From positions 33,947-97,946 of the forward strand of contig CAWJAC010000006.1 of the NCBI GenBank assembly GCA_963840745.1: a DNA stretch of 64,000 bases, in the 5' to 3' direction. Positions 9,677 to 50,390 of the stretch are shown here, in pieces; position 1 is the stretch's first letter, and every line of letters starts with the position of its first letter. This stretch comes from Candidatus Zambryskiibacteriota bacterium (GTDB lineage: Bacteria > Patescibacteriota > Minisyncoccia > Phycocordibacterales > WO2-35-19). The notes under the pieces are model-generated. The model had not been told where the DNA came from. It worked only from the letters and a program-made list of their open reading frames with translations, and ran no database searches. The position numbers and the translations under genes are program-made.

Positions 9677-10737
9677 ATGAATTTTTGGCAAAAAATGAAG
9701 AAACCCATTTTGTGTTTGGCGCCCATGGCCGATGTCACTGACGTGGCTTTTAGATTTATTATTGCTAAGTATTCGAAAGAATTGCAGAAGGTGCCCTTCT
9801 GCAATTATGTAACTTACACAGAATTTGTTTCGGCTGATGGGCTGGTGAGAGCGCCGGAGGCAGGTCGCAAGAAACTTTTGAAAGATTTGGAATATTCTGA
9901 AATTGAAAGACCTATTGTAGCTCAGTTTTTTACAAGCAAACCTGAAATGATGGAAAAGGCGGCGGCCTTGGCGGTTGAGCTTGGTTTTGACGGCATTGAT
10001 ATAAATATGGGCTGCCCAGATAAAAGTATTGAAAAGCAAAATGCCGGCGCGGCCTTAATGAAGAACTCTGAATTGGCTAGAGAAATAATTTTGGCGGCAA
10101 AACAGGGCGCCGGTAAATTACCGGTGTCGGTCAAGACTAGGGTTGGCTATAACAAAGATGAATTAGAAACATGGTTGCCAGAATTACTTGCTGAAAATCC
10201 GGCGGCGATAATTATTCATGCCCGCACTCGCAAAGAGATGTCTAAAGTGCCGGCTCAGTGGGCGCGCATAGCGCGGGCAGTTGAAATTCGTAATGATATA
10301 CAGAATTCAGAAAAATCAGAAAACATTGTTCCTGCGTCGGGTCTAAGGATAAGGCTCTTGAAACAATATTTTCTGATTTTTCTTTTCGAACTTTAATAAT
10401 AGGAAACGGTGATGTTGAAAATGTTGAAGATGCGATTAAAAAATGCGAAGAGAGCGGAGCCGATGGGGCAATGCTTGGTAGAGCAGTTTTTGGCAACCCG
10501 TGGTTATTTGCGGATTATCAGCCTACACTCGAAGAAAGGATTAAAGTTCTGTTGGAACATACCAAAACTTTTGAAGAAAAATTCAGCGGAGTAAAAAGTT
10601 TTGCTATTATGAAAAAGCATTTCAAAGAGTATTTGAAAGATTCTAACCTGAGAGACTTGAGATTTAAGCTCATGAAAGCCGAAAATTCTAAAGAAGTTGA
10701 GGAAATAATTTCAAATTTTGGGTTTCCAACTGAGTAG
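9677..10737 (+). CDS. dus: tRNA-dihydrouridine synthase, reading frame broken by an 80-nt hairpin insert
   Basis: ILCLAPMADVTD, GIDINMGCP, VKTRVG in ORF 9677-10396. IIGNGDVENVEDA...GADGAMLGRAVFGNPWLF is in a different frame (open from 10285). Removing 10310-10389 joins them in frame. Confidence 0.85.
10310..10382. other. Hairpin element copy 1: 21-bp stem (10310-10330 / 10362-10382) with a 31-nt conserved loop
   Basis: Arms gaaaaatcagaaaacattgtt / aacaatattttctgatttttc are complementary except one C/A, which is a G-U on the minus strand. The loop contains ctgcgtcgggtctaaggataaggctcttga. Confidence 0.75.
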
Positions 10738-17674: not shown

Positions 17675-17835
17675 CTTTCTCGCGCCAAACGGCGCTCGCT
17701 AACCAAAACCTCGATAGTATGGATTGTCTACGGACAGTTCATACCGTCGAGGTTTTTTCTTTATCCACTTTTTTTGTTGACCTCCAACCCGAACACTTAT
17801 ATAATATTTGTATATTTAATTTTATAAAATAATTT

Positions 17836-18369
17836 ATGGAAAATATTGAAAATAATCCATATCCTACTTCTTCCACTTCTCCTCGCAAAACAAACAAACG
17901 ACTAATTATTCTTGTTTGCATTTTGATAATTGCGGCTGCGGGCTGGGCTTATTATGCCTATAAAATCAAAAGTAAAAATAATGCAAGCCAACATCTGCCT
18001 CAAACTTTCTCGTTTACTGCCGAAACCAAACTTGCTTCTTCCCAGCTTCCCTCCGGATTTCCCAAAGATTTTCCGGCAAATAACGAAGTGGCATACGTTC
18101 TTTATAACTACAATGGCGAAACTAACGACAAGCTTGCGGGCGTGAGGGAATTTACCACCACAAGGTCGGTGCAGGAAGCTTACCAATTTTACCATAGTTA
18201 TTTTTCACAATTGGGATGGACAATGGACCCCTCCCAGCAACTGTCCACTAACCACATAGATACCTATGCGACGAATGGTTCATTTTACGCTTCCATCAAA
18301 ATCGACTCTTATCCCCAAGCTTCCAAACATGTGAAGGCACTGGTATTAATAGTCATTACTTCCGATTAA
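17836..18369 (+). CDS. Membrane-anchored hypothetical protein
   Basis: 177 aa; one TM segment (LIILVCILIIAAAGWAYYAY) after a polar N-terminus. Confidence 0.55.
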   Translation: MENIENNPYPTSSTSPRKTNKRLIILVCILIIAAAGWAYYAYKIKSKNNASQHLPQTFSFTAETKLASSQLPSGFPKDFPANNEVAYVLYNYNGETNDKLAGVREFTTTRSVQEAYQFYHSYFSQLGWTMDPSQQLSTNHIDTYATNGSFYASIKIDSYPQASKHVKALVLIVITSD

Positions 18370-26467: not shown

Positions 26468-28470
26468 AAAAATTTTTTAATCCTAAATCGGTCGCAGTTA
26501 TCGGAGCAAGTTCTGATAAAAATAAAGTTGGCTTTGCTTTGATGGCGAATCTGCTTGCCGGCAAGAAGAGGGAAATTTATCCTATTACTCTGGGCGAAAA
26601 AGAAATACTCGGCATTCCTGCTTTTGTCTCGGTTTTAGATGTATCTGAAAAAATTGATTTGGCTATTATTGCCGTCCGGGCCGATATTGTGCCTCAAGTG
26701 TTGTCCGACTGTGGTAAAAAGGAAATACCAAATATCATTGTTGTCTCGTCAGGTTTTAAAGAAATAGGTCCGGCAGGCAAAAAGCTTGAAAATCAAATTG
26801 CAGCCATAGCCAAGCAAAACAACATGACAATTTTAGGGCCAAATTGTCTTGGAGTTATTGATACAAAAAATGATTTGAATGCCTCCTTTTCTCCGCAAAA
26901 ACCACTTGCCGGAAAAATCGCTCTTTTGTCTCAATCGGGCGCTTTGGGCACGGCAATGCTCGACTGGGCTATCGGCGAAGGGGTCGGTTTTTCAAAATTT
27001 GTAAGTTTGGGCAATGAGGCACAGCTGACAGAAATAGATTTCCTTAAGTTTTTGAAAGATGACGACGATACGGATTCCATTTTAATTTATTTGGAAAAAG
27101 TTAGCGATGGTCCGGAATTAATGCGTCTTTTAAAATCAATAACACCAAAAAAGCCGGTTGTCATACTCAAAGCCGGAGTGAGCGATTATGGAGCTTCTGC
27201 CATTATGTCCCACACTGGCTCTTTAGCGCCGGAATCCAGAGTTTTTACTGCTGCTTGTCAGCAAGCCGGTGCCATTATGGTGCCTTCGCTCCGCAAGTTT
27301 TTTAATATTTCCAAACTCTTATCACTTGGAGTCAAGGTAAACGCGCCCATTTCGCGCCTCATAGTTTTGACCAATGGAGGCGGACCATCCGTCATTGCTG
27401 CCGATGAGATCGGACTTTCCCGTTCCTTGTCTTTGGTTTCAATTCATGAAGATGTCAAAGAGAAATTAAGAGGGGTTCTACCGAGCATGGCGGCGGTCGG
27501 CAATCCTGTCGATATAATAGGCGATGCCTTGGCGGAACGATACGAAAAGGCTCTCGATATTTTATGCGGTGTCAAAGATGCAGACGGCATTATCGTAATG
27601 CTCACTCCGCAAATGATGACCGAGGCGGAAGCGACGGCTCATTTGCTTTCAAAATATAAAAATAAGAAAAAAATATTTCCAGTATTTATTGGCGGTCCAT
27701 CTATACAAGCTGGCCGTAGTGACTTGCTGCAGTCTGGCCTTGTTAATTTTGCTTTTTCAAAAGATGTGGTTTATGGGTTGGACAGCTTGGCAAACTATGC
27801 TCCAAAAATTTTGCTGTCAAAGACGGCCTTTGTCTTTGACAGTGTCTCTCAGATGCCATTTGAAGATATGACTAAAATTTTAGGTGAATATAATATTTCA
27901 ATAAAAGGAAAATTCATAAACAGAAAAGAAGATTTAGAAAACGCTCTCAGAGAATGCGGAGAAGGTCCTTATGCTATGAAAGCCATATCAAATAATATAG
28001 TTCACAAAATTGATGTTGGTGCTGTCAAGTTAAATATTTCAAATTTGGAAGAAGCTAATGTTGTTTGGGAAGAAATGTGGCAAAAATTTGTGCAGCTGGA
28101 TGGCATATTGATTCAAAAAATGGCTGAGGGCAAGGAAGTTATAATTGGTATGAAAAGAGATGCAACATTTGGCCCAACAATTCTTTTTGGTTTGGGTGGC
28201 ATTTTGGCAGAAGCTATAAAGGATACCGCTTTGCGAATTGCTCCTATAGAAAAAGAAGAAGCCTTTAAAATGATGCAAGAAATAAAAGGCATCAAAATAT
28301 TACAAGGTATGCGTGGCGAGCCGCCCGTAAATTTTGATTTGCTTGCTGATATTATCATAAATCTCTCTCGCCTCGCTCTTGACCATCCCGAAATAAAAGA
28401 AATAGACCTCAATCCCGTCATAGCCGCCGAATCTTCTGCGGCTATTGTTGATGTTAGATTAATGATTTAA
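26455..28470 (+). CDS. ADP-forming acetyl-CoA synthetase (fused alpha/beta; CoA-binding plus ATP-grasp)
   Basis: 671 aa. FNPKSVAVIGAS, SQSGALG, HTGSLA, then the C-terminal ATP-grasp part. Confidence 0.8.
   Translation: MENLEKFFNPKSVAVIGASSDKNKVGFALMANLLAGKKREIYPITLGEKEILGIPAFVSVLDVSEKIDLAIIAVRADIVPQVLSDCGKKEIPNIIVVSSGFKEIGPAGKKLENQIAAIAKQNNMTILGPNCLGVIDTKNDLNASFSPQKPLAGKIALLSQSGALGTAMLDWAIGEGVGFSKFVSLGNEAQLTEIDFLKFLKDDDDTDSILIYLEKVSDGPELMRLLKSITPKKPVVILKAGVSDYGASAIMSHTGSLAPESRVFTAACQQAGAIMVPSLRKFFNISKLLSLGVKVNAPISRLIVLTNGGGPSVIAADEIGLSRSLSLVSIHEDVKEKLRGVLPSMAAVGNPVDIIGDALAERYEKALDILCGVKDADGIIVMLTPQMMTEAEATAHLLSKYKNKKKIFPVFIGGPSIQAGRSDLLQSGLVNFAFSKDVVYGLDSLANYAPKILLSKTAFVFDSVSQMPFEDMTKILGEYNISIKGKFINRKEDLENALRECGEGPYAMKAISNNIVHKIDVGAVKLNISNLEEANVVWEEMWQKFVQLDGILIQKMAEGKEVIIGMKRDATFGPTILFGLGGILAEAIKDTALRIAPIEKEEAFKMMQEIKGIKILQGMRGEPPVNFDLLADIIINLSRLALDHPEIKEIDLNPVIAAESSAAIVDVRLMI
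27814..27842. repeat. REP-like palindrome inside the acetyl-CoA synthetase ORF: ctgtcaaagac ggccttt gtctttgacag
   Basis: Perfect 11-bp arms. Core TGTCAAAG shared with the RAYT-flanking REPs. Translated in frame as LSKTAFVFDS. Confidence 0.75.
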
Positions 28471-29698
28471 GGTCAAAGTTTGGATCGGACAATTCTGATT
28501 CGTGGCCGGAGACTTTGAAGTTGGATTCAATCAGTTTGTTTACGATAGACATATCTTGTGTGCGGTTGATAAATGTGGCGCCTATGATTTCGTCATTGCT
28601 ATCCACAATAATCCGCGCGAACCCGCCTTCGCCAAGCTTCGGCGAGGCAAGGCCGCGTTTTATTACTTTTTTTGAAGAGTCAACTCTCACGTCTCCAGAC
28701 ATAGCAATATTCAAACCAAAGCCCATGGCCGTGTAAAAAGAAACCATCCTAAATTGATTTATTTGGCCAAGCATATTTAAGGCAGCAGTACGGCCTTGCA
28801 TCTGGGCATTAACCCAATTGCCAAGCTGGACTCTTTCGCCCAACACAAGATCATTAAATTCAGCTACATCGCCAGCGGCATAAATATTCGGAATATTTGT
28901 TGCTAAATACTCGTTGGCTAAAATACCTTTGTTTGTTTCAATGCCGGCTTGCTTTAACCAATCCAAATGGCAAATTAATCCTATGCCGACGAGAGCCAAC
29001 TGGCAGGGAATCTGAGTGCTATCTTTTAAAACAACACCTTCAATTTTTTGGTCTCCCAAAATTTCAGAAACTTCAGCTTCACGCAAAATTTTAATACCAC
29101 CATTTTCCATGCCGGATTCAATCATTTTGGCAGACTCTTCATCCAAAAGTGGATACCAATAATATGGCTCGCGCATGATAAGAGTCACAGGAAGTCCGGC
29201 CAGACGCATCATCTCGCACATTTCAAAACTGACAAATCCTGAGCCGATAGCGATGGCTTGTTTTGCTGTTTTAATATTTTCCATAAGCACTTCAGCCTCA
29301 CTCAAGTCGCGCAAGTAACAAATACCTTTTTTGTCAGATCCGGGAATTTGCCAAGGTCTGGCTTCGCCACCGGTAGCGAGTAAAAGCTTTTCGTATTTTA
29401 AGATTTTACTGTTATTAAGTTCAATAGTTTTCAATTTTATATCTAACTTATTAGCCACTACGCCTTCAATAAATTCAATTTTGTTTTCTTCATACCATTC
29501 TTTTTTGCGCAGCCAAACGGAATCAAATGGAATTTTACCTAAAAAGAAATTTGGTTTGGAGAGCATAATGCGTGAATAAAAACGCGGCTCATCGGAAACT
29601 ATGGCGATACTTCCGTCTTTATCATTTTGGCGCAAAGTTTCAGCGGCCGTCGTACCGGCCACTCCACCGCCTATTATGAGATATTTATATTCACTCAT
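28454..29698 (-). CDS. FAD/NAD(P)-dependent pyridine nucleotide-disulfide oxidoreductase
   Basis: YLIIGGGVAGTTAAE and AIGSGFVSFE dinucleotide folds, AAGDVAEF. Confidence 0.75.
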   Translation of the reverse strand: MSEYKYLIIGGGVAGTTAAETLRQNDKDGSIAIVSDEPRFYSRIMLSKPNFFLGKIPFDSVWLRKKEWYEENKIEFIEGVVANKLDIKLKTIELNNSKILKYEKLLLATGGEARPWQIPGSDKKGICYLRDLSEAEVLMENIKTAKQAIAIGSGFVSFEMCEMMRLAGLPVTLIMREPYYWYPLLDEESAKMIESGMENGGIKILREAEVSEILGDQKIEGVVLKDSTQIPCQLALVGIGLICHLDWLKQAGIETNKGILANEYLATNIPNIYAAGDVAEFNDLVLGERVQLGNWVNAQMQGRTAALNMLGQINQFRMVSFYTAMGFGLNIAMSGDVRVDSSKKVIKRGLASPKLGEGGFARIIVDSNDEIIGATFINRTQDMSIVNKLIESNFKVSGHESELSDPNFDLKSLI

Positions 29699-29713
29699 AT
29701 TTTGATTATAACA

Positions 29714-29787
29714 AAAAACAACAGAAACATCATTTCTGCGTTAGGTCGCAAGGATAAGGCTCTTGAAATGATATTTCTGTTGTTTTT
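29714..29787. other. Hairpin element copy 2: 23-bp stem (29714-29736 / 29765-29787) with a 28-nt conserved loop
   Basis: aaaaacaacagaaacatcatttc / gaaatgatatttctgttgttttt with one C/A (a G-U on the minus strand). Loop tgcgttaggtcgcaaggataaggctctt. Intergenic, within a minus-strand operon. Confidence 0.75.
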
Positions 29788-29794
29788 CTCCTCT

Positions 29795-30055
29795 CTATTT
29801 GGGAAAAACTTGCACGCCTGATTTATCAAACAAAAGAATAGCTTTGGTTGGGCAGGATTCGGCTGACATAAGAAGGGCGGCATCATCTGCCGCGTCCGCA
29901 TGGGTTACTACTACTTTGTTTTCACCATCAAGTTCGTAAGTTTCGCCGGAAACAGCGATGCAAGAAGCGGCGCCGATGCACAAACCTCTATCAATCACAA
30001 TTTTACCAATATTTGATCCTTCTTTGTTGCGAGCGTATTCTTTTAAATCTGCCAT
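29795..30055 (-). CDS. Small ferredoxin
   Basis: 86 aa; DRGLCIGAASC...AESCP cluster ligands. Confidence 0.7.
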   Translation of the reverse strand: MADLKEYARNKEGSNIGKIVIDRGLCIGAASCIAVSGETYELDGENKVVVTHADAADDAALLMSAESCPTKAILLFDKSGVQVFPK

Positions 30056-32729: not shown

Positions 32730-32831
32730 GTTTAAAATATACTTTTTTCAAAATATTGCAACAACGTTAATTTTTGGTACAATAATCAAATCATTGAAAA
32801 TAAGTATTATAAGTGAGATAAAGTGGCTGGC

Positions 32832-32906
32832 TCCGCGGTGGCGCAGCGGTAGCGCAGTCGCCTGTTAAGCGATTGGTCGTTGGTTCGAATCCAACCCGCG
32901 GAGCCA
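32832..32906 (+). tRNA. tRNA-Asn (anticodon GUU), CCA encoded
   Basis: Hand-folded cloverleaf: acceptor tccgcgg/ccgcgga, D stem gcgc/gcgc, anticodon stem gtcgc/gcgat with loop cuGUUaa, T arm gttgg-ttcgaat-ccaac, discriminator g, cca. Confidence 0.9.
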
Positions 32907-33032
32907 GCCACTTTATCAAAAGCAAGAGTTAATTCAGGGAATTTAATTTAAATCAAAATTAATTTGCAACAATAGAAATATTATGGTTAAATCACATCAG
33001 GTCTGATCTTTGACCTAGAAAGGATGTGGTGT

Positions 33033-48464: not shown

Positions 48465-50390
48465 TCACAATAAATTATTGGGGTCTACTTTTAGTTCAAA
48501 GTGGGGAGGGAGAGATTTTAAAATTGCTAGCAAATTTTGATCTACCCATTTTTCTTTAGGCAATTTTATGACAGCATTAACGGCTGATTGCTCACCTCGT
48601 TTTTCGTGAGTAGAGGGAAAGATAGCTGGGTTGTAATCTTTAAAAATATTTTTTAAATTTTCAGATTCTTTAGCCACGAAATTTCTAGTACCCCTGACTG
48701 TTATTTTTATAAAAATACCGAATGGCGGATAGCCCAAAACTTCTCGGTCCTCTATTTCTTTTTTATAAAATTCTATAAGGTTGCCACTTACAGCAAATTC
48801 CACAGTAGGATCATTTGGATTGCGAGTTTGTATTAAAAAATTTTCTTTGGCTATATTTTTGGTCTGTACAATTAGGCGAAATATTTTTTCTCTGATGCAA
48901 AAGTCTGGGATAGAGAAAAGGGAATCAAAAGAAGCTATAGCAGTAGTCGCCACTTTTTTTCGGAGGAATGAGAAAGCCATTTCAGTGCCCAAAAGCACTC
49001 CGCCTCTGTTTTCATAAAACTTTTCCGCAGTGGCAGATGCTTTAGTATCGGTTGGAGTGATGTCTTTGTGGATTTCAAAAAGATTTATGTTTGGAATGCT
49101 TTTCCTTATCTCATCAGCTACTCGGTCTAGCCCCGCGCCAAAGGCCGCCAGTTTCCAGCTGCCGCAATTTTGGCAGACCTCGGCTGCATCGCGCATCTCT
49201 CCGCATTGATGGCATTTAAAAGCGCCACCGTCCCTTGTCTTATATAAAATCATAGGCGACGAGCAGTTGTTGCATTTGACTTGCTCGCCGCAATCGCGGC
49301 AGACAGTGACAGAAGAGAGACCTTTCCTAGCGGCAAAAATAAACATATTAGAGCTTTTTTCCGTGTTTTCTTTTATCATATTCAGCAATTCCGGAGATAA
49401 AGTTTTAAATTCTTTTCCTTGCCCTGAACTTGTCGAAGGGTCTTTCTTGCTTGATTCTCTCAAATCCACTACCTCTGTTTTAACTTCAGACGGCAGTCTC
49501 CATTTGACGCTTTCAAACTCTCCGACTTCTCCTTGTTTGTATCTATACAAAGTTTCTGTTCGGAGGAATGAATCCCCAATTACTGCGCGTATATTTTTTT
49601 TGTTCGCCAAAATCTCGGCAAAAAATCGCAGATCCATGAACGGCCGTGATAAAGTTTTCCAACCGTTTTCATTTTCTTTGTCTATAATCACAGTGCCAAA
49701 ATCATTTCTTGGCAAAAATAGCCATTTAGCGGTGGCGATGACGAGTATCGGATGCGGAGTCAAACAAGCTTTTTTCCATTCCTCTTTCAGTTCTTTTTTG
49801 TTCATTTCATTATGGAAAGAGCAGACGAATAATTCTATGCCGCGTTCCAAGTTTTCTTTGATGAGTTTGACGTCTTCATTTTGCGGCAGGCAGAGAAAGA
49901 CCGATCTTTTTTTAGCAAACTCTTCTCTGATAAGCGATCTGTAGAGAGACAGTCTTTCTTCGTCCGGAGCCTGAAGCACAGTCACTTCGTTTTTGGTGTT
50001 GTCAAAGACGGTCTTTGACAGTTGTCCCGAAAAGACTGTCTTTGACAACACGCTTGGATTTTCCAAAACAAAAGAAGGAATTAATTGGGACAAAACGCTT
50101 CCTTGGTTGGTAGCAAAATATTCTGCCGTTTCTTTGACTACCTCCAAAAATTCTTTTTGCAAAAATGGTTTGGCTGTGACGGCTGAAATTTTTTTGAGCT
50201 GGAAATCGGCTGACTTTATTTCAGATTTTGCTTCTGTGACATCTCGGCTCTCTAAAACCAGTGCTGATACTGCTTTGCTTCTAATATTTATTTTGACGAG
50301 AGAACCTGGTTCCAAATATTTTGGTCCGAAGTAGGAGAGTGATTCCTTATTCAACCCCTTTGAAAATGGGAGACATTCGATAATAAACAT
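48465..50390 (-). CDS. priA: Primosomal protein N' (PriA helicase)
   Basis: 641 aa. Cys-rich zinc region CRDCGEQVKCNNCSSPM...CHQCG...CQNCGS and helicase-like core. Confidence 0.8.
   Translation of the reverse strand: MFIIECLPFSKGLNKESLSYFGPKYLEPGSLVKINIRSKAVSALVLESRDVTEAKSEIKSADFQLKKISAVTAKPFLQKEFLEVVKETAEYFATNQGSVLSQLIPSFVLENPSVLSKTVFSGQLSKTVFDNTKNEVTVLQAPDEERLSLYRSLIREEFAKKRSVFLCLPQNEDVKLIKENLERGIELFVCSFHNEMNKKELKEEWKKACLTPHPILVIATAKWLFLPRNDFGTVIIDKENENGWKTLSRPFMDLRFFAEILANKKNIRAVIGDSFLRTETLYRYKQGEVGEFESVKWRLPSEVKTEVVDLRESSKKDPSTSSGQGKEFKTLSPELLNMIKENTEKSSNMFIFAARKGLSSVTVCRDCGEQVKCNNCSSPMILYKTRDGGAFKCHQCGEMRDAAEVCQNCGSWKLAAFGAGLDRVADEIRKSIPNINLFEIHKDITPTDTKASATAEKFYENRGGVLLGTEMAFSFLRKKVATTAIASFDSLFSIPDFCIREKIFRLIVQTKNIAKENFLIQTRNPNDPTVEFAVSGNLIEFYKKEIEDREVLGYPPFGIFIKITVRGTRNFVAKESENLKNIFKDYNPAIFPSTHEKRGEQSAVNAVIKLPKEKWVDQNLLAILKSLPPHFELKVDPNNLL
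49996..50051. repeat. Nested REP-like palindromes inside priA
   Basis: gtgttgtcaaagac (49996-50009) pairs perfectly with gtctttgacaacac (50038-50051). Inner tgtcaaagac / gtctttgaca at 50000-50020. Translated as LSKTVFSGQLSKTVFDNT. Confidence 0.75.

What the first reader, a model, noticed from the sequence alone, without database searches (positions are those of the whole stretch)
29714..29787. Second copy of the same hairpin element: conserved loop, covarying stem, same G-U position
**Seen in the sequence**
- The ferredoxin/oxidoreductase intergenic copy and the dus copy (10310-10382) share a nearly identical loop core: CTGCGT(C/T)(G/A)GGTC(T/G)(A/C)AAGGATAAGGCTCTTGA.
- Their stems differ in sequence but stay complementary.
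- Inner stem: TGTT/AACA versus CATTT/AAATG.
- Outer stem: AAAAATCAG/CTGATTTTT versus AAAAACAACAG/CTGTTGTTTTT.
- Both copies have a single C/A opposition at the equivalent stem position (10324/10368 and 29728/29773). On the minus strand this becomes a G-U pair.

**Inference**
Compensatory change plus a conserved loop argues for selection on a folded RNA or DNA hairpin, probably read from the minus strand. A simple terminator or a recent MITE copy would not show this pattern.

Copy 2 lies inside a minus-strand operon about 15 nt upstream of the oxidoreductase ATG. Copy 1 is antisense to dus. A 21-23 bp duplex is also a plausible RNase III substrate. I recognise no known ribozyme, riboswitch or sRNA family in it.
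Basis: seen in the sequence. Interest (0 to 1): 0.7.

Follow-up and report, generated by a model that had tools for sequence, protein, structure and literature searches.

The report
Palindromic insertion element of Patescibacteria
The two hairpins are copies of a small, previously undescribed palindromic DNA element that has been inserted between genes, and in frame inside genes, in Patescibacteria (candidate phyla radiation), much like the Rickettsia palindromic elements; it is not a strand-specific regulatory RNA.

Summary
Window 29714-29787 and 10309-10383 are about 75-nt hairpins with near-identical 28-nt loops and different, complementary 22-23-bp arms.

Collection scans found more than 20 further distinct copies, all in Patescibacteria contigs. 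Twenty-one of 24 arm pairs covary. The loop is 92-98% identical between copies; the arms are 57-59% identical.

The RNA reading is not supported:
- Copies lie in either orientation relative to genes.
- The loop is flipped between orthologous sites in two cases, including copy 2 against a relative.
- Close relatives have empty sites. For copy 2, the ferredoxin stop overlaps the reductase ATG there.
- The element sits in frame inside dus, polA and an M50 peptidase, adding about 25 residues (..SALGHKDKALE..).

Copy 1 is such an in-frame dus insert. The same Dus loop carries at least five other insert families in homologs. The window's priA carries another in-frame palindrome.

Best reading: a dispersed, RPE-like palindromic insertion element whose loop is its functional core. 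Resident copies are more conserved than host synonymous sites, which is unexplained. No Rfam family, phage or viral match, or paper was found.

The parts
29714..29787 (.). Copy 2 of the palindromic element. Arms are 29714-29736 and 29765-29787; the loop is 29737-29764. It is an insertion between the ferredoxin and reductase genes.
   Evidence: Relatives L047 and P0123 have no spacer at this junction. L046 has the same arms and 3' flank but an inverted loop.
10309..10383 (+). Copy 1 of the element, inside dus in the translatable orientation. Its loop carries 3 transitions and a 1-nt deletion (between 10343 and 10344) relative to the intact copy in L039.
9677..10396 (+). dus, N-terminal part (239 codons). 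It runs into the element and stops out of frame at 10394-10396.
   Evidence: P0048 is this truncated product.
10344..10737 (+). dus, C-terminal part, in the frame shifted by the 1-nt loop deletion. It reads ..KDKALETIFSDFSFRTLIIGNGDV..MLGRAVFGNPWLF.. and has no internal stop.
29795..30055 (-). 4Fe-4S ferredoxin gene, upstream of copy 2 in the Fe-S cluster operon (IscS, NifU_N, NifU, ferredoxin).
28454..29698 (-). Pyridine nucleotide-disulphide oxidoreductase (ferredoxin-reductase-like). Its ATG lies 15 nt beyond the hairpin.
29699..29713 (-). Spacer between the hairpin and the ATG. On the minus strand it reads tGTTATAATCAAAAT, a TGnTATAAT-like -10 box 6 nt before the ATG. L046 has the identical sequence; the empty sites lack it.
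   Evidence: Promoter function is inferred, not shown, and the scan did not call a full sigma-70 promoter here.

Best explanation
The two hairpins are copies of a dispersed palindromic insertion element of about 76 bp, found in Patescibacteria (Paceibacteria-type genomes such as Zambryskibacteria and Nomurabacteria).

Anatomy: two arms of 22-24 bp that are A-rich on one side and T-rich on the other, closed by TTTC/GAAA, around a 28-nt loop (TGCGTTAGGTC-NN-AAGGATAAGGCTCTT).

It behaves as DNA, not as an oriented RNA gene. It lands at permissive places, namely gene junctions and surface loops of proteins. When it lands in a protein it must be in the one phase and orientation that is open, and it then adds about 25 residues (..IVSALGHKDKALETxF..).

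Copy 2 was inserted into a ferredoxin/reductase junction that was formerly a TAATG stop/start overlap. Copy 1 is an in-frame insert in a Dus surface loop that later lost one loop base, so the window's dus is split. That is either a recent pseudogene or an assembly error.

Inferred, not shown:
- The arms stay complementary through hairpin-driven DNA processes (template switching at quasipalindromes), possibly with selection for a hairpin.
- The same processes flip the loop in place.
- The loop is the element's functional core, recognised by an unidentified trans-acting factor. That factor could be a hairpin-specific transposition or nicking enzyme, or a host DNA-binding protein. This would explain why the loop stays nearly invariant while the arms drift.
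For: Family and distribution:
- Exact-loop scans found 7 true copies in Patescibacteria genomes and 27 more stretches in metagenomes, which reduce to 24 distinct sequences. The model found further diverged copies.

Insertion behaviour:
- Filled and empty sites occur among close relatives. For copy 2, L047 reads ..CCTAAATAATGG.. with stop and start overlapping, and P0123 has genes ending and starting at the same base. For dus, L041 and about 45 of 120 homologs have the basal 19-residue loop.
- Two copies flank infB in L016. They share the same arms, including the same two mismatches, so both arms are copied faithfully.

In-frame genic copies:
- dus P0001/L039 reads through the element.
- polA L012 and its ortholog L030 carry it between the 5'-nuclease and polymerase domains.
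- The M50 peptidase of L029 and P0245 carries it.
- In the Dus model the insert lies between helix 212-227 and strand 257-261, with pLDDT about 57 in a model whose mean is 89. It is an insertion relative to PDB 1vhn residues 177-188.

Not an oriented RNA:
- Both orientations occur relative to genes.
- The loop is flipped at two orthologous sites.

General phenomenon:
- The same Dus loop holds at least five other insert families, and the two tested also fold as hairpins.
- The window's priA carries an unrelated in-frame palindrome.

Decay:
- L040 has lost 9 nt of one arm and has 5 loop changes.
- The window's dus copy is frameshifted.
Against: - No transposase, target-site duplication or conserved terminal repeat was found, so mobility is inferred from the distribution alone.
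- Resident copies are better conserved than a decaying selfish insert should be. In polA L012/L030 the element is 96% identical, with 25 of 25 third codon positions identical, against 52% in the rest of the gene. In dus L039/L040 the figures are 87% against 72.5% nucleotide identity.
- The loop stays conserved after flipping, and in L048 even where the arms have decayed.
- Most copies were found by an exact match to 21 specified loop bases, which inflates apparent loop conservation. However, the 7 loop columns outside the pattern are still 92% identical.
- Copy number is low: 2 in 64 kb here, and 3 exact-loop copies in one genome assembly.
Confidence: 0.7

Rival explanations
1. A host-functional DNA site. 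On this reading the 28-bp loop is a binding or recognition sequence for a conserved protein, for example in chromosome organisation, replication, recombination or DNA uptake. The arms let it be presented on a hairpin or cruciform. Because intergenic space is scarce in these small genomes, some sites sit in frame inside genes.
For: - Nucleotide-level conservation exceeds that of host synonymous sites, even inside coding sequence.
- The loop is conserved regardless of its orientation to genes, and after in-place flips.
- The loop is 92-98% identical across lineages whose housekeeping genes are saturated at third codon positions.
- In L048 the loop is intact although the arms have decayed.
Against: - Presence is patchy among close relatives at the same locus.
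- Some copies are decaying (L040, and the window's dus copy).
- A within-genome duplicate pair exists.
- It shares a protein-loop hotspot with several unrelated hairpin inserts.
- No partner protein is known.
- The copy density of about 1 per 30 kb is far below that of known uptake signals (from general knowledge of Neisseria DUS and Haemophilus USS).
Confidence: 0.15
2. One reading: a structured RNA transcribed from the minus orientation, acting as an sRNA, a cis-regulatory hairpin or an RNase III substrate. The stem would be kept by compensatory selection and the loop by function.
For: - Strong covariation.
- 27 G-U pairs in the minus fold against 6 in the plus fold.
- Very stable folds.
- Copy 2 lies 15 nt upstream of a start codon.
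Against: - In 10 of 14 co-oriented or genic loci the minus orientation would be antisense to the surrounding transcription.
- The loop is reverse-complemented at orthologous sites yet stays conserved.
- Close relatives lack the element and have translationally coupled genes instead.
- Genic copies keep an open frame, which a non-translated RNA element would not need.
- No Rfam family matches.
- No conserved promoter accompanies the element.
- Covariation in a DNA palindrome can arise without selection on RNA (PMC7202029).
Confidence: 0.08
3. A terminator-like spacer element, comparable to SPRITE of pneumococcus. On this reading the A-tract/stem/T-tract hairpin stops transcription in both directions at gene ends. 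A -10 box just beyond it restarts the downstream gene. The loop would be incidental.
For: - The arms start with an A-run and end with a T-run in nearly all copies.
- Most intergenic copies abut a stop codon.
- In six loci the hairpin is followed by TGnTATAAT-like boxes 6-8 nt before the next ATG: window copy 2, L046, L019, L022, L038 and L015.
Against: - AU-rich arms of 23 bp with a 28-nt loop do not fit intrinsic terminators, and the scan did not call one.
- The element also sits inside polA, dus and rseP, where termination would be harmful.
- This reading does not explain the conserved loop.
Confidence: 0.07

Closest known systems
Rickettsia palindromic elements (RPE)
   Same: - Dispersed palindromic repeats with no coding capacity of their own.
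- Found both between genes and in frame inside unrelated housekeeping genes, where they add a conserved peptide at positions compatible with the fold.
- Several families co-exist in small, reduced genomes.
- No known transposition machinery.
(The RPE description is taken from PMC10969869. For this element.)
   Different: - Half the size: about 76 bp against about 100-150 bp.
- A different phylum.
- The loop is the conserved part and the arms drift while staying paired.
- The loop flips in place.
- Sequence homology to RPE families was not tested.
Classical bacterial MITEs (for example Correia elements, ERIC)
   Same: Short, non-autonomous, hairpin-forming repeats at gene boundaries, which sometimes fuse in frame with genes and sometimes carry promoter or terminator signals.
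   Different: MITEs are defined by conserved terminal inverted repeats and target-site duplications. Here the arms are the least conserved part (57-59% identity), and no duplication is visible at filled versus empty sites.
BIME/RIP elements of E. coli and the central IHF site of Correia elements (from general knowledge)
   Same: Inverted repeats flank a conserved central motif that is a protein-binding site. This is the closest known analogue in layout.
   Different: In those elements the arms (REP sequences) are conserved too. The loop here does not match the IHF consensus WATCAANNNNTTR in register (read by eye, not a formal test).
Hairpin substrates of HUH enzymes (rolling-circle origins, IS200/IS605 ends, REP/RAYT) and integron attC sites (from general knowledge)
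   Same: The stem is recognised by its shape and may vary and covary. A short invariant sequence or extrahelical bases carry the specificity. Use is strand-specific, which would fit the wobble asymmetry.
   Different: No such enzyme gene was linked to the element. No cleavage motif was identified. Loop flips argue against a fixed strand.
Minute loop inversions at hairpins in plastid non-coding DNA
   Same: The loop between short inverted repeats is found reverse-complemented between close relatives while the stem and flanks stay colinear (for example PMC5492656). Searches show the same here.
   Different: Those are unique hairpins in plastid genomes, not a dispersed family with a conserved loop.

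Membership tests
RPE-type protein-coding palindromic repeats | Dispersed repeat present in several copies per genome and across related genomes | tested here: met
   2 copies in the window. 3 exact-loop copies on three contigs of one assembled genome, and 24 distinct sequences overall. Extra diverged copies found with the model.
RPE-type protein-coding palindromic repeats | Palindromic, hairpin-forming sequence | tested here: met
   Folds of -15 to -41 kcal/mol. 89% of cells paired over 24 pairs.
RPE-type protein-coding palindromic repeats | Inserted in frame in unrelated protein-coding genes, adding a conserved peptide | tested here: met
   Dus (P0001, P0002, P0033), PolA (L012, L030) and the M50 peptidase (L029, P0245). 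All carry ..ALGHKDKAL...
RPE-type protein-coding palindromic repeats | Insert sits at a position compatible with the protein fold (surface or linker) | tested here: met
   Dus: an insertion relative to 1vhn residues 177-188, and a low-confidence helical excursion in an otherwise confident model. PolA: it lies between the two matched domains, around residues 320-348.
RPE-type protein-coding palindromic repeats | Size of about 100-150 bp and sequence relationship to the Rickettsia families | tested here: not met
   The element is about 76 bp and occurs in Patescibacteria. Sequence comparison with RPE consensus sequences was not done. It is therefore an analogue, not a member of the Rickettsia families.
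Classical MITE | Terminal inverted repeats conserved in sequence among copies | tested here: not met
   The arms are 57-59% identical between independent copies, against 92-98% for the loop.
Classical MITE | Target-site duplication flanking the insert | tested here: inconclusive
   No direct repeat is visible at the boundaries in 20 loci or at the filled versus empty dus and ferredoxin/reductase sites. The A-run and T-run ends make the boundaries uncertain by a few bases.
Classical MITE | A parent insertion sequence with matching ends and a transposase | not tested
   Only fragments of the genomes were available.
REP / REPIN | Conserved REP arms with a GTAG or CGTC tetranucleotide, and an associated RAYT gene | tested here: not met
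   The arms have no conserved tetranucleotide and are the variable part. The RAYT gene was not searched for.
Any Rfam RNA family | Score at or above the family's gathering threshold | tested here: not met
   Only a tRNA passes in the window. In E-value mode there are only generic hairpin (miRNA-precursor) hits at 25-31 bits, against thresholds of 49-100.
Intrinsic (rho-independent) terminator | Short G+C-rich stem, loop of 3-8 nt, followed by a T-run | tested here: not met
   The scan does not call the element. The arms are AU-rich and the loop is 28 nt. A T-run is present.

The most novel reading that the evidence does not exclude
The 28-nt loop is a functional nucleic-acid signal kept by selection at every resident site, even when embedded in frame in housekeeping proteins. 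It would be read by an unknown, conserved Patescibacteria factor, either a hairpin-specific enzyme that moves the element or a host DNA-binding protein. The in-place loop flips would then be an active flip/flop rather than mutational noise. Together with the other hairpin families at the same protein loops, this would make palindromic elements a major and unrecognised source of the protein insertions typical of this radiation.
Probability: 0.25. Interest if true: 0.8.

Novelty: new variant of a known kind. Interest (0 to 1): 0.58.

Why it matters
Patescibacteria have tiny genomes and are known for odd insertions in conserved genes.

This result shows that at least one family of about 76-bp palindromes has been inserted between genes and in frame into housekeeping proteins (Dus, PolA, an M50 peptidase). 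Judging from the Dus hotspot and the priA insert, several families do this. Until now this behaviour was best documented for Rickettsia.

Practical consequences:
- It explains split or lengthened gene calls in these genome assemblies.
- It gives a marker for strain-level variation, through filled or empty sites and flipped loops.

It also leaves a concrete puzzle: a loop sequence conserved far beyond host synonymous sites, with no known reader.

Tried and rejected
- **Known RNA families.** Rfam gave nothing at gathering thresholds or in relaxed mode.
- **Translational bypass or a tiny intron in dus.** Considered because the gene changes frame across the hairpin. Rejected because the closest homolog reads straight through the same element, and the window differs from it only by a 1-nt loop deletion.
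- **Arms derived from the target site, or the loop inserting into pre-existing hairpins.** Rejected. Empty sites contain no arm sequence, and the arms of different copies share a family consensus.
- **Phage or plasmid origin.** The loop has no exact match in viral contigs, and there is only a chance-level phage hit.
- **Peptide profile search of the 5.8-billion-protein database.** It failed: first the query was too short, then only 7 candidates were returned and none scored.
- **Profile search of cluster representatives.** It gave 2 true hits (an M50 peptidase and an RpoB N-terminal fragment) and TPR false positives.
- **Orientation relative to replication.** The GC-skew proxy was suggestive only, at roughly 11 against 4, and it is confounded with gene direction.
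- **Resemblances in the loop.** parS-like, CRISPR-repeat-like, IHF-site, tRNA-anticodon-like and 16S-3'-end-like resemblances were looked at by eye. None held across copies.
- **Chance hits.** The scans' Corynebacterium, Spirochaetales and two metagenome hits (L004, L005, L031, L033) lack both the hairpin and the CTGCGT part of the loop.

Full report
**1. The observation**

Both hairpins exist as described.
- Copy 2 has arms 29714-29736 and 29765-29787 (23 nt, 96% complementary) around a 28-nt loop.
- Copy 1 has arms 10309-10330 and 10362-10383.
- Either strand folds at -27 to -32 kcal/mol, 5.5 to 7.9 standard deviations below shuffled sequence.
- The shared loop 17-mer occurs exactly twice in the window.
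- A covariance model built later scores the two copies at 91 and 85 bits. The next hit (28 bits) is an unrelated plain hairpin, so the window holds two copies only.

One detail was missed. Copy 1 has one base fewer between GGTC and AAGG than copy 2 and every other copy.

**2. It is a family**

Scanning for GGTC-N1-2-AAGGATAAGGCTCTTGA gave 9 stretches in a collection of one genome per species. Seven are true hairpins, all in Patescibacteria assemblies (Zambryskibacteria, Nomurabacteria and unnamed bins). Two are chance matches without a hairpin.

The metagenome collection gave 29 more stretches, two of them chance matches. Together with the window these reduce to 24 distinct sequences, of which 22 were aligned (A2).

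Conservation across the alignment:
- The loop and its closing TTTC/GAAA are almost invariant.
- The arms differ from copy to copy yet pair. 21 of 24 pairs show changes on both sides, 89% of cells are paired against 72% in shuffles, and 0 of 500 shuffles reach the observed values. Sliding the partner by one to three columns drops pairing to 48-59%.
- Between 18 independent loci the arms are 57-59% identical and the flanks 32%.
- The seven loop columns that were not part of the search pattern are 92% identical, so loop conservation is not just ascertainment.
- The arms still share a family consensus (AAAAAnCAGAAAACATTGTTTC), so the whole hairpin is the unit.

**3. Where the copies sit**

Among intergenic copies:
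- 7 loci have both neighbouring genes co-directional with the displayed (plus) orientation.
- 4 have both genes opposite.
- 2 lie between divergent starts.
- 3 lie between convergent ends.

The unexpected result is that several copies lie inside long reading frames without interrupting them:
- polA in L012 and its ortholog L030;
- an M50 (RseP-type) peptidase in L029;
- dus in the window.

In the plus orientation only one frame of the loop is open, and it reads S-A-L-G-H-K-D-K-A-L-E.

**4. Copy 1 and dus**

The dus reading frame enters the element and stops at 10396. The rest of Dus (..RTLIIGNGDV..MLGRAVFGNPWLF..) continues in another frame. Adding one base to the loop gives a 353-residue Dus.

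The closest homolog, P0001 (86% identity), has exactly this..IQNSEKSENIVSALGHKDKALETIFSDFSFRTLIIGNGDV...

At the DNA level, L039 (which encodes P0001) and the window are identical over about 300 nt around the element. The only differences are three transitions and the 1-nt deletion, all within 12 nt of the loop. So copy 1 is a canonical in-frame insert that has recently been damaged, or mis-assembled. The public record annotates only the 239-residue fragment (P0048).

A more distant homolog, L040 (encoding P0002), has a decaying copy with 9 nt lost from one arm and five loop changes. L041 (encoding P0006) and many others have no insert.

Relative to the solved Dus structure 1vhn, the insert falls between residues 177 and 188. 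In an AlphaFold model of P0001 (mean pLDDT 89) it is a low-confidence two-helix excursion between helix 212-227 and strand 257-261.

In PolA the insert lies between the 5'-nuclease and polymerase domains, at the same position in both orthologs.

**5. Copy 2, the finding proper**

It sits in an Fe-S cluster operon on the minus strand (IscS, NifU_N, NifU, ferredoxin, hairpin, ferredoxin-reductase-like oxidoreductase). Among reductase homologs:
- P0123 (83% identity) and L047 (79%) have the ferredoxin stop overlapping the reductase ATG (..AAATAATGG..), with no spacer at all.
- A near-identical strain (L045) has the same hairpin as the window.
- L046 (78% protein identity) has the same arms, with one compensated A:T to C:G change, and the identical 3' flank GTTATAATCAAAATATG. 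Its loop, however, is the reverse complement of the window's.

Copy 2 is therefore an insertion of about 96 nt into a formerly coupled gene pair, and its loop has since flipped in one lineage.

A second flip is seen between L025 and L026, an orthologous junction between a NYN-type gene and a GspE-type gene.

**6. What this excludes and what it supports**

A strand-specific RNA read from the minus orientation does not fit:
- the mixed orientations;
- the sense-strand, translated genic copies;
- the empty sites in close relatives;
- above all, the loop flips, after which the loop sequence remains conserved.

It is confounded by shared ancestry of copies and by flips.

Covariation itself is weak evidence for RNA here. 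Imperfect DNA palindromes are corrected arm against arm by replication template switching (PMC7202029). Loop inversions between short inverted repeats are a known DNA-level event (for example plastid hairpins, PMC5492656).

Evidence for insertion and copying:
- filled and empty sites among relatives;
- different sites occupied within one syntenic neighbourhood (PGK-HIT-RecJ in L015 and L036);
- two copies flanking infB in L016 that share arms, including the same two mismatches. Both arms are therefore copied as they are, not regenerated from one another.

**7. A wider phenomenon**

The Dus loop AVEIRxxxx|KTLIIGNGD is a hotspot.
- Of 120 homologs at 60-86% identity, about 45 have the basal 19-residue spacing.
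- The rest carry inserts of up to 83 extra residues, falling into at least five other recognisable families.
- The two tested at the DNA level (L043, L044) also fold as long hairpins.
- P0033 carries a further family-A copy with different arms at the same site.

The window itself has a second, unrelated case. A palindrome with 21-bp arms at 49996-50051 lies in frame inside the PriA-like gene. It encodes ..LSKTVFSGQLSKTVFDNTK.., which resembles one of the Dus insert families.

This pattern closely parallels the Rickettsia palindromic elements: several families, in small genomes, frequently in frame in housekeeping genes (PMC10969869).

**8. What remains unexplained**

Resident copies are too well conserved for simple decaying inserts.
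- In polA (L012 against L030) the element is 96% identical, with all 25 third codon positions identical. The rest of the gene is 74% identical, with 52% at third positions.
- In dus (L039 against L040, not ascertained by the loop pattern) the figures are 87% against 72.5%.
- In L048, an RpoB N-terminal fragment found with a peptide profile, the loop is intact although the arms no longer pair.

Something reads the loop sequence. I could not identify it. No Rfam family, phage or viral match, or paper was found. The layout recalls two things:
- substrates of hairpin-specific DNA enzymes, which have a variable, covarying stem with an invariant short sequence;
- BIME/RIP-type elements, which have a central protein-binding motif.

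These are analogies from general knowledge, not tests.

**9. Verdict**

It is wrong on the molecule and the strand.

The best-supported reading is a dispersed, RPE-like palindromic insertion element of Patescibacteria, with a conserved loop as its functional core. Copy 2 is an insertion that split a coupled ferredoxin/reductase pair. Copy 1 is an in-frame Dus insert, now frameshifted.

I rate it a new variant of a known kind, of moderate to good interest. That interest rests on two points:
- the behaviour appears general in this radiation;
- the loop's conservation and its flipping remain unexplained.

Noticed in passing
window 49996-50051 (inside ORF 48465-50390, minus strand): A palindrome with 21-bp arms (95% complementary, 14-nt loop) lies in frame inside the 641-residue PriA-like gene. 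It encodes ..LSKTVFSGQLSKTVFDNTK... The peptide resembles the 'SKTVFD' insert family seen at the Dus hotspot in homologs (P0012, P0062). It is a second, unrelated in-frame palindromic insert in this genome.
   Followed up: partly
window 32817-32917: tRNA-Asn(GTT) at 32832-32906 sits inside a perfect 22-bp inverted repeat (32817-32838 and 32896-32917). Fifteen bases of the 5' leader pair with the 3' trailer, extending the acceptor stem. This is unusual for a bacterial tRNA precursor.
   Followed up: partly
Dus homologs P0003-P0120, loop between AVEIR and GNGD (window equivalent about 10290-10410): This one surface loop carries at least five other insert families in closely related proteins, for example ..QKCTDIFLLENSSCSPQSGSQGIS.., ..SPLTPLLxLGEG..SLFPSPDQGEG.. 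and ..RSQDASHISLQELS... Lengths run from 19 to 102 residues. The two checked as DNA (L043, L044) fold as long hairpins.
   Followed up: partly
window 10331-10343 compared with L039: Three transitions and a 1-nt deletion are clustered within 12 nt of the loop, inside a block of about 300 nt that is otherwise identical between two genomes whose dus genes are 88% identical overall. The gene looks mosaic, with blocks of 75-100% identity.
   Followed up: partly
window 29699-29713 (minus strand); also L046, L019, L022, L038, L015: In six loci the hairpin is followed by a TGnTATAAT-like box 6-8 nt before the next ATG. This would give leaderless or near-leaderless transcripts. At copy 2 this stretch is absent from the empty sites.
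   Followed up: partly
L016 4225-4312 and 5816-5905: Two copies of the element, with nearly the same arms and the same two mismatches, flank infB in direct orientation in a Nomurabacteria contig.
   Followed up: partly
P0241, P0243, P0244: A profile of the element-encoded peptide (..SALGHKDKALE..) picks up TPR repeats (..SALGEKQKALEYY..). This is probably a chance resemblance.
   Followed up: no
window 17705-17756: A hairpin with 24-bp arms (83% complementary) and a 4-nt loop, flanked by AAAA/TTTT, lies between ORFs ending at about 17674 and starting at 17836. It looks like a long-stem terminator and may show what ordinary terminators look like in this genome.
   Followed up: no
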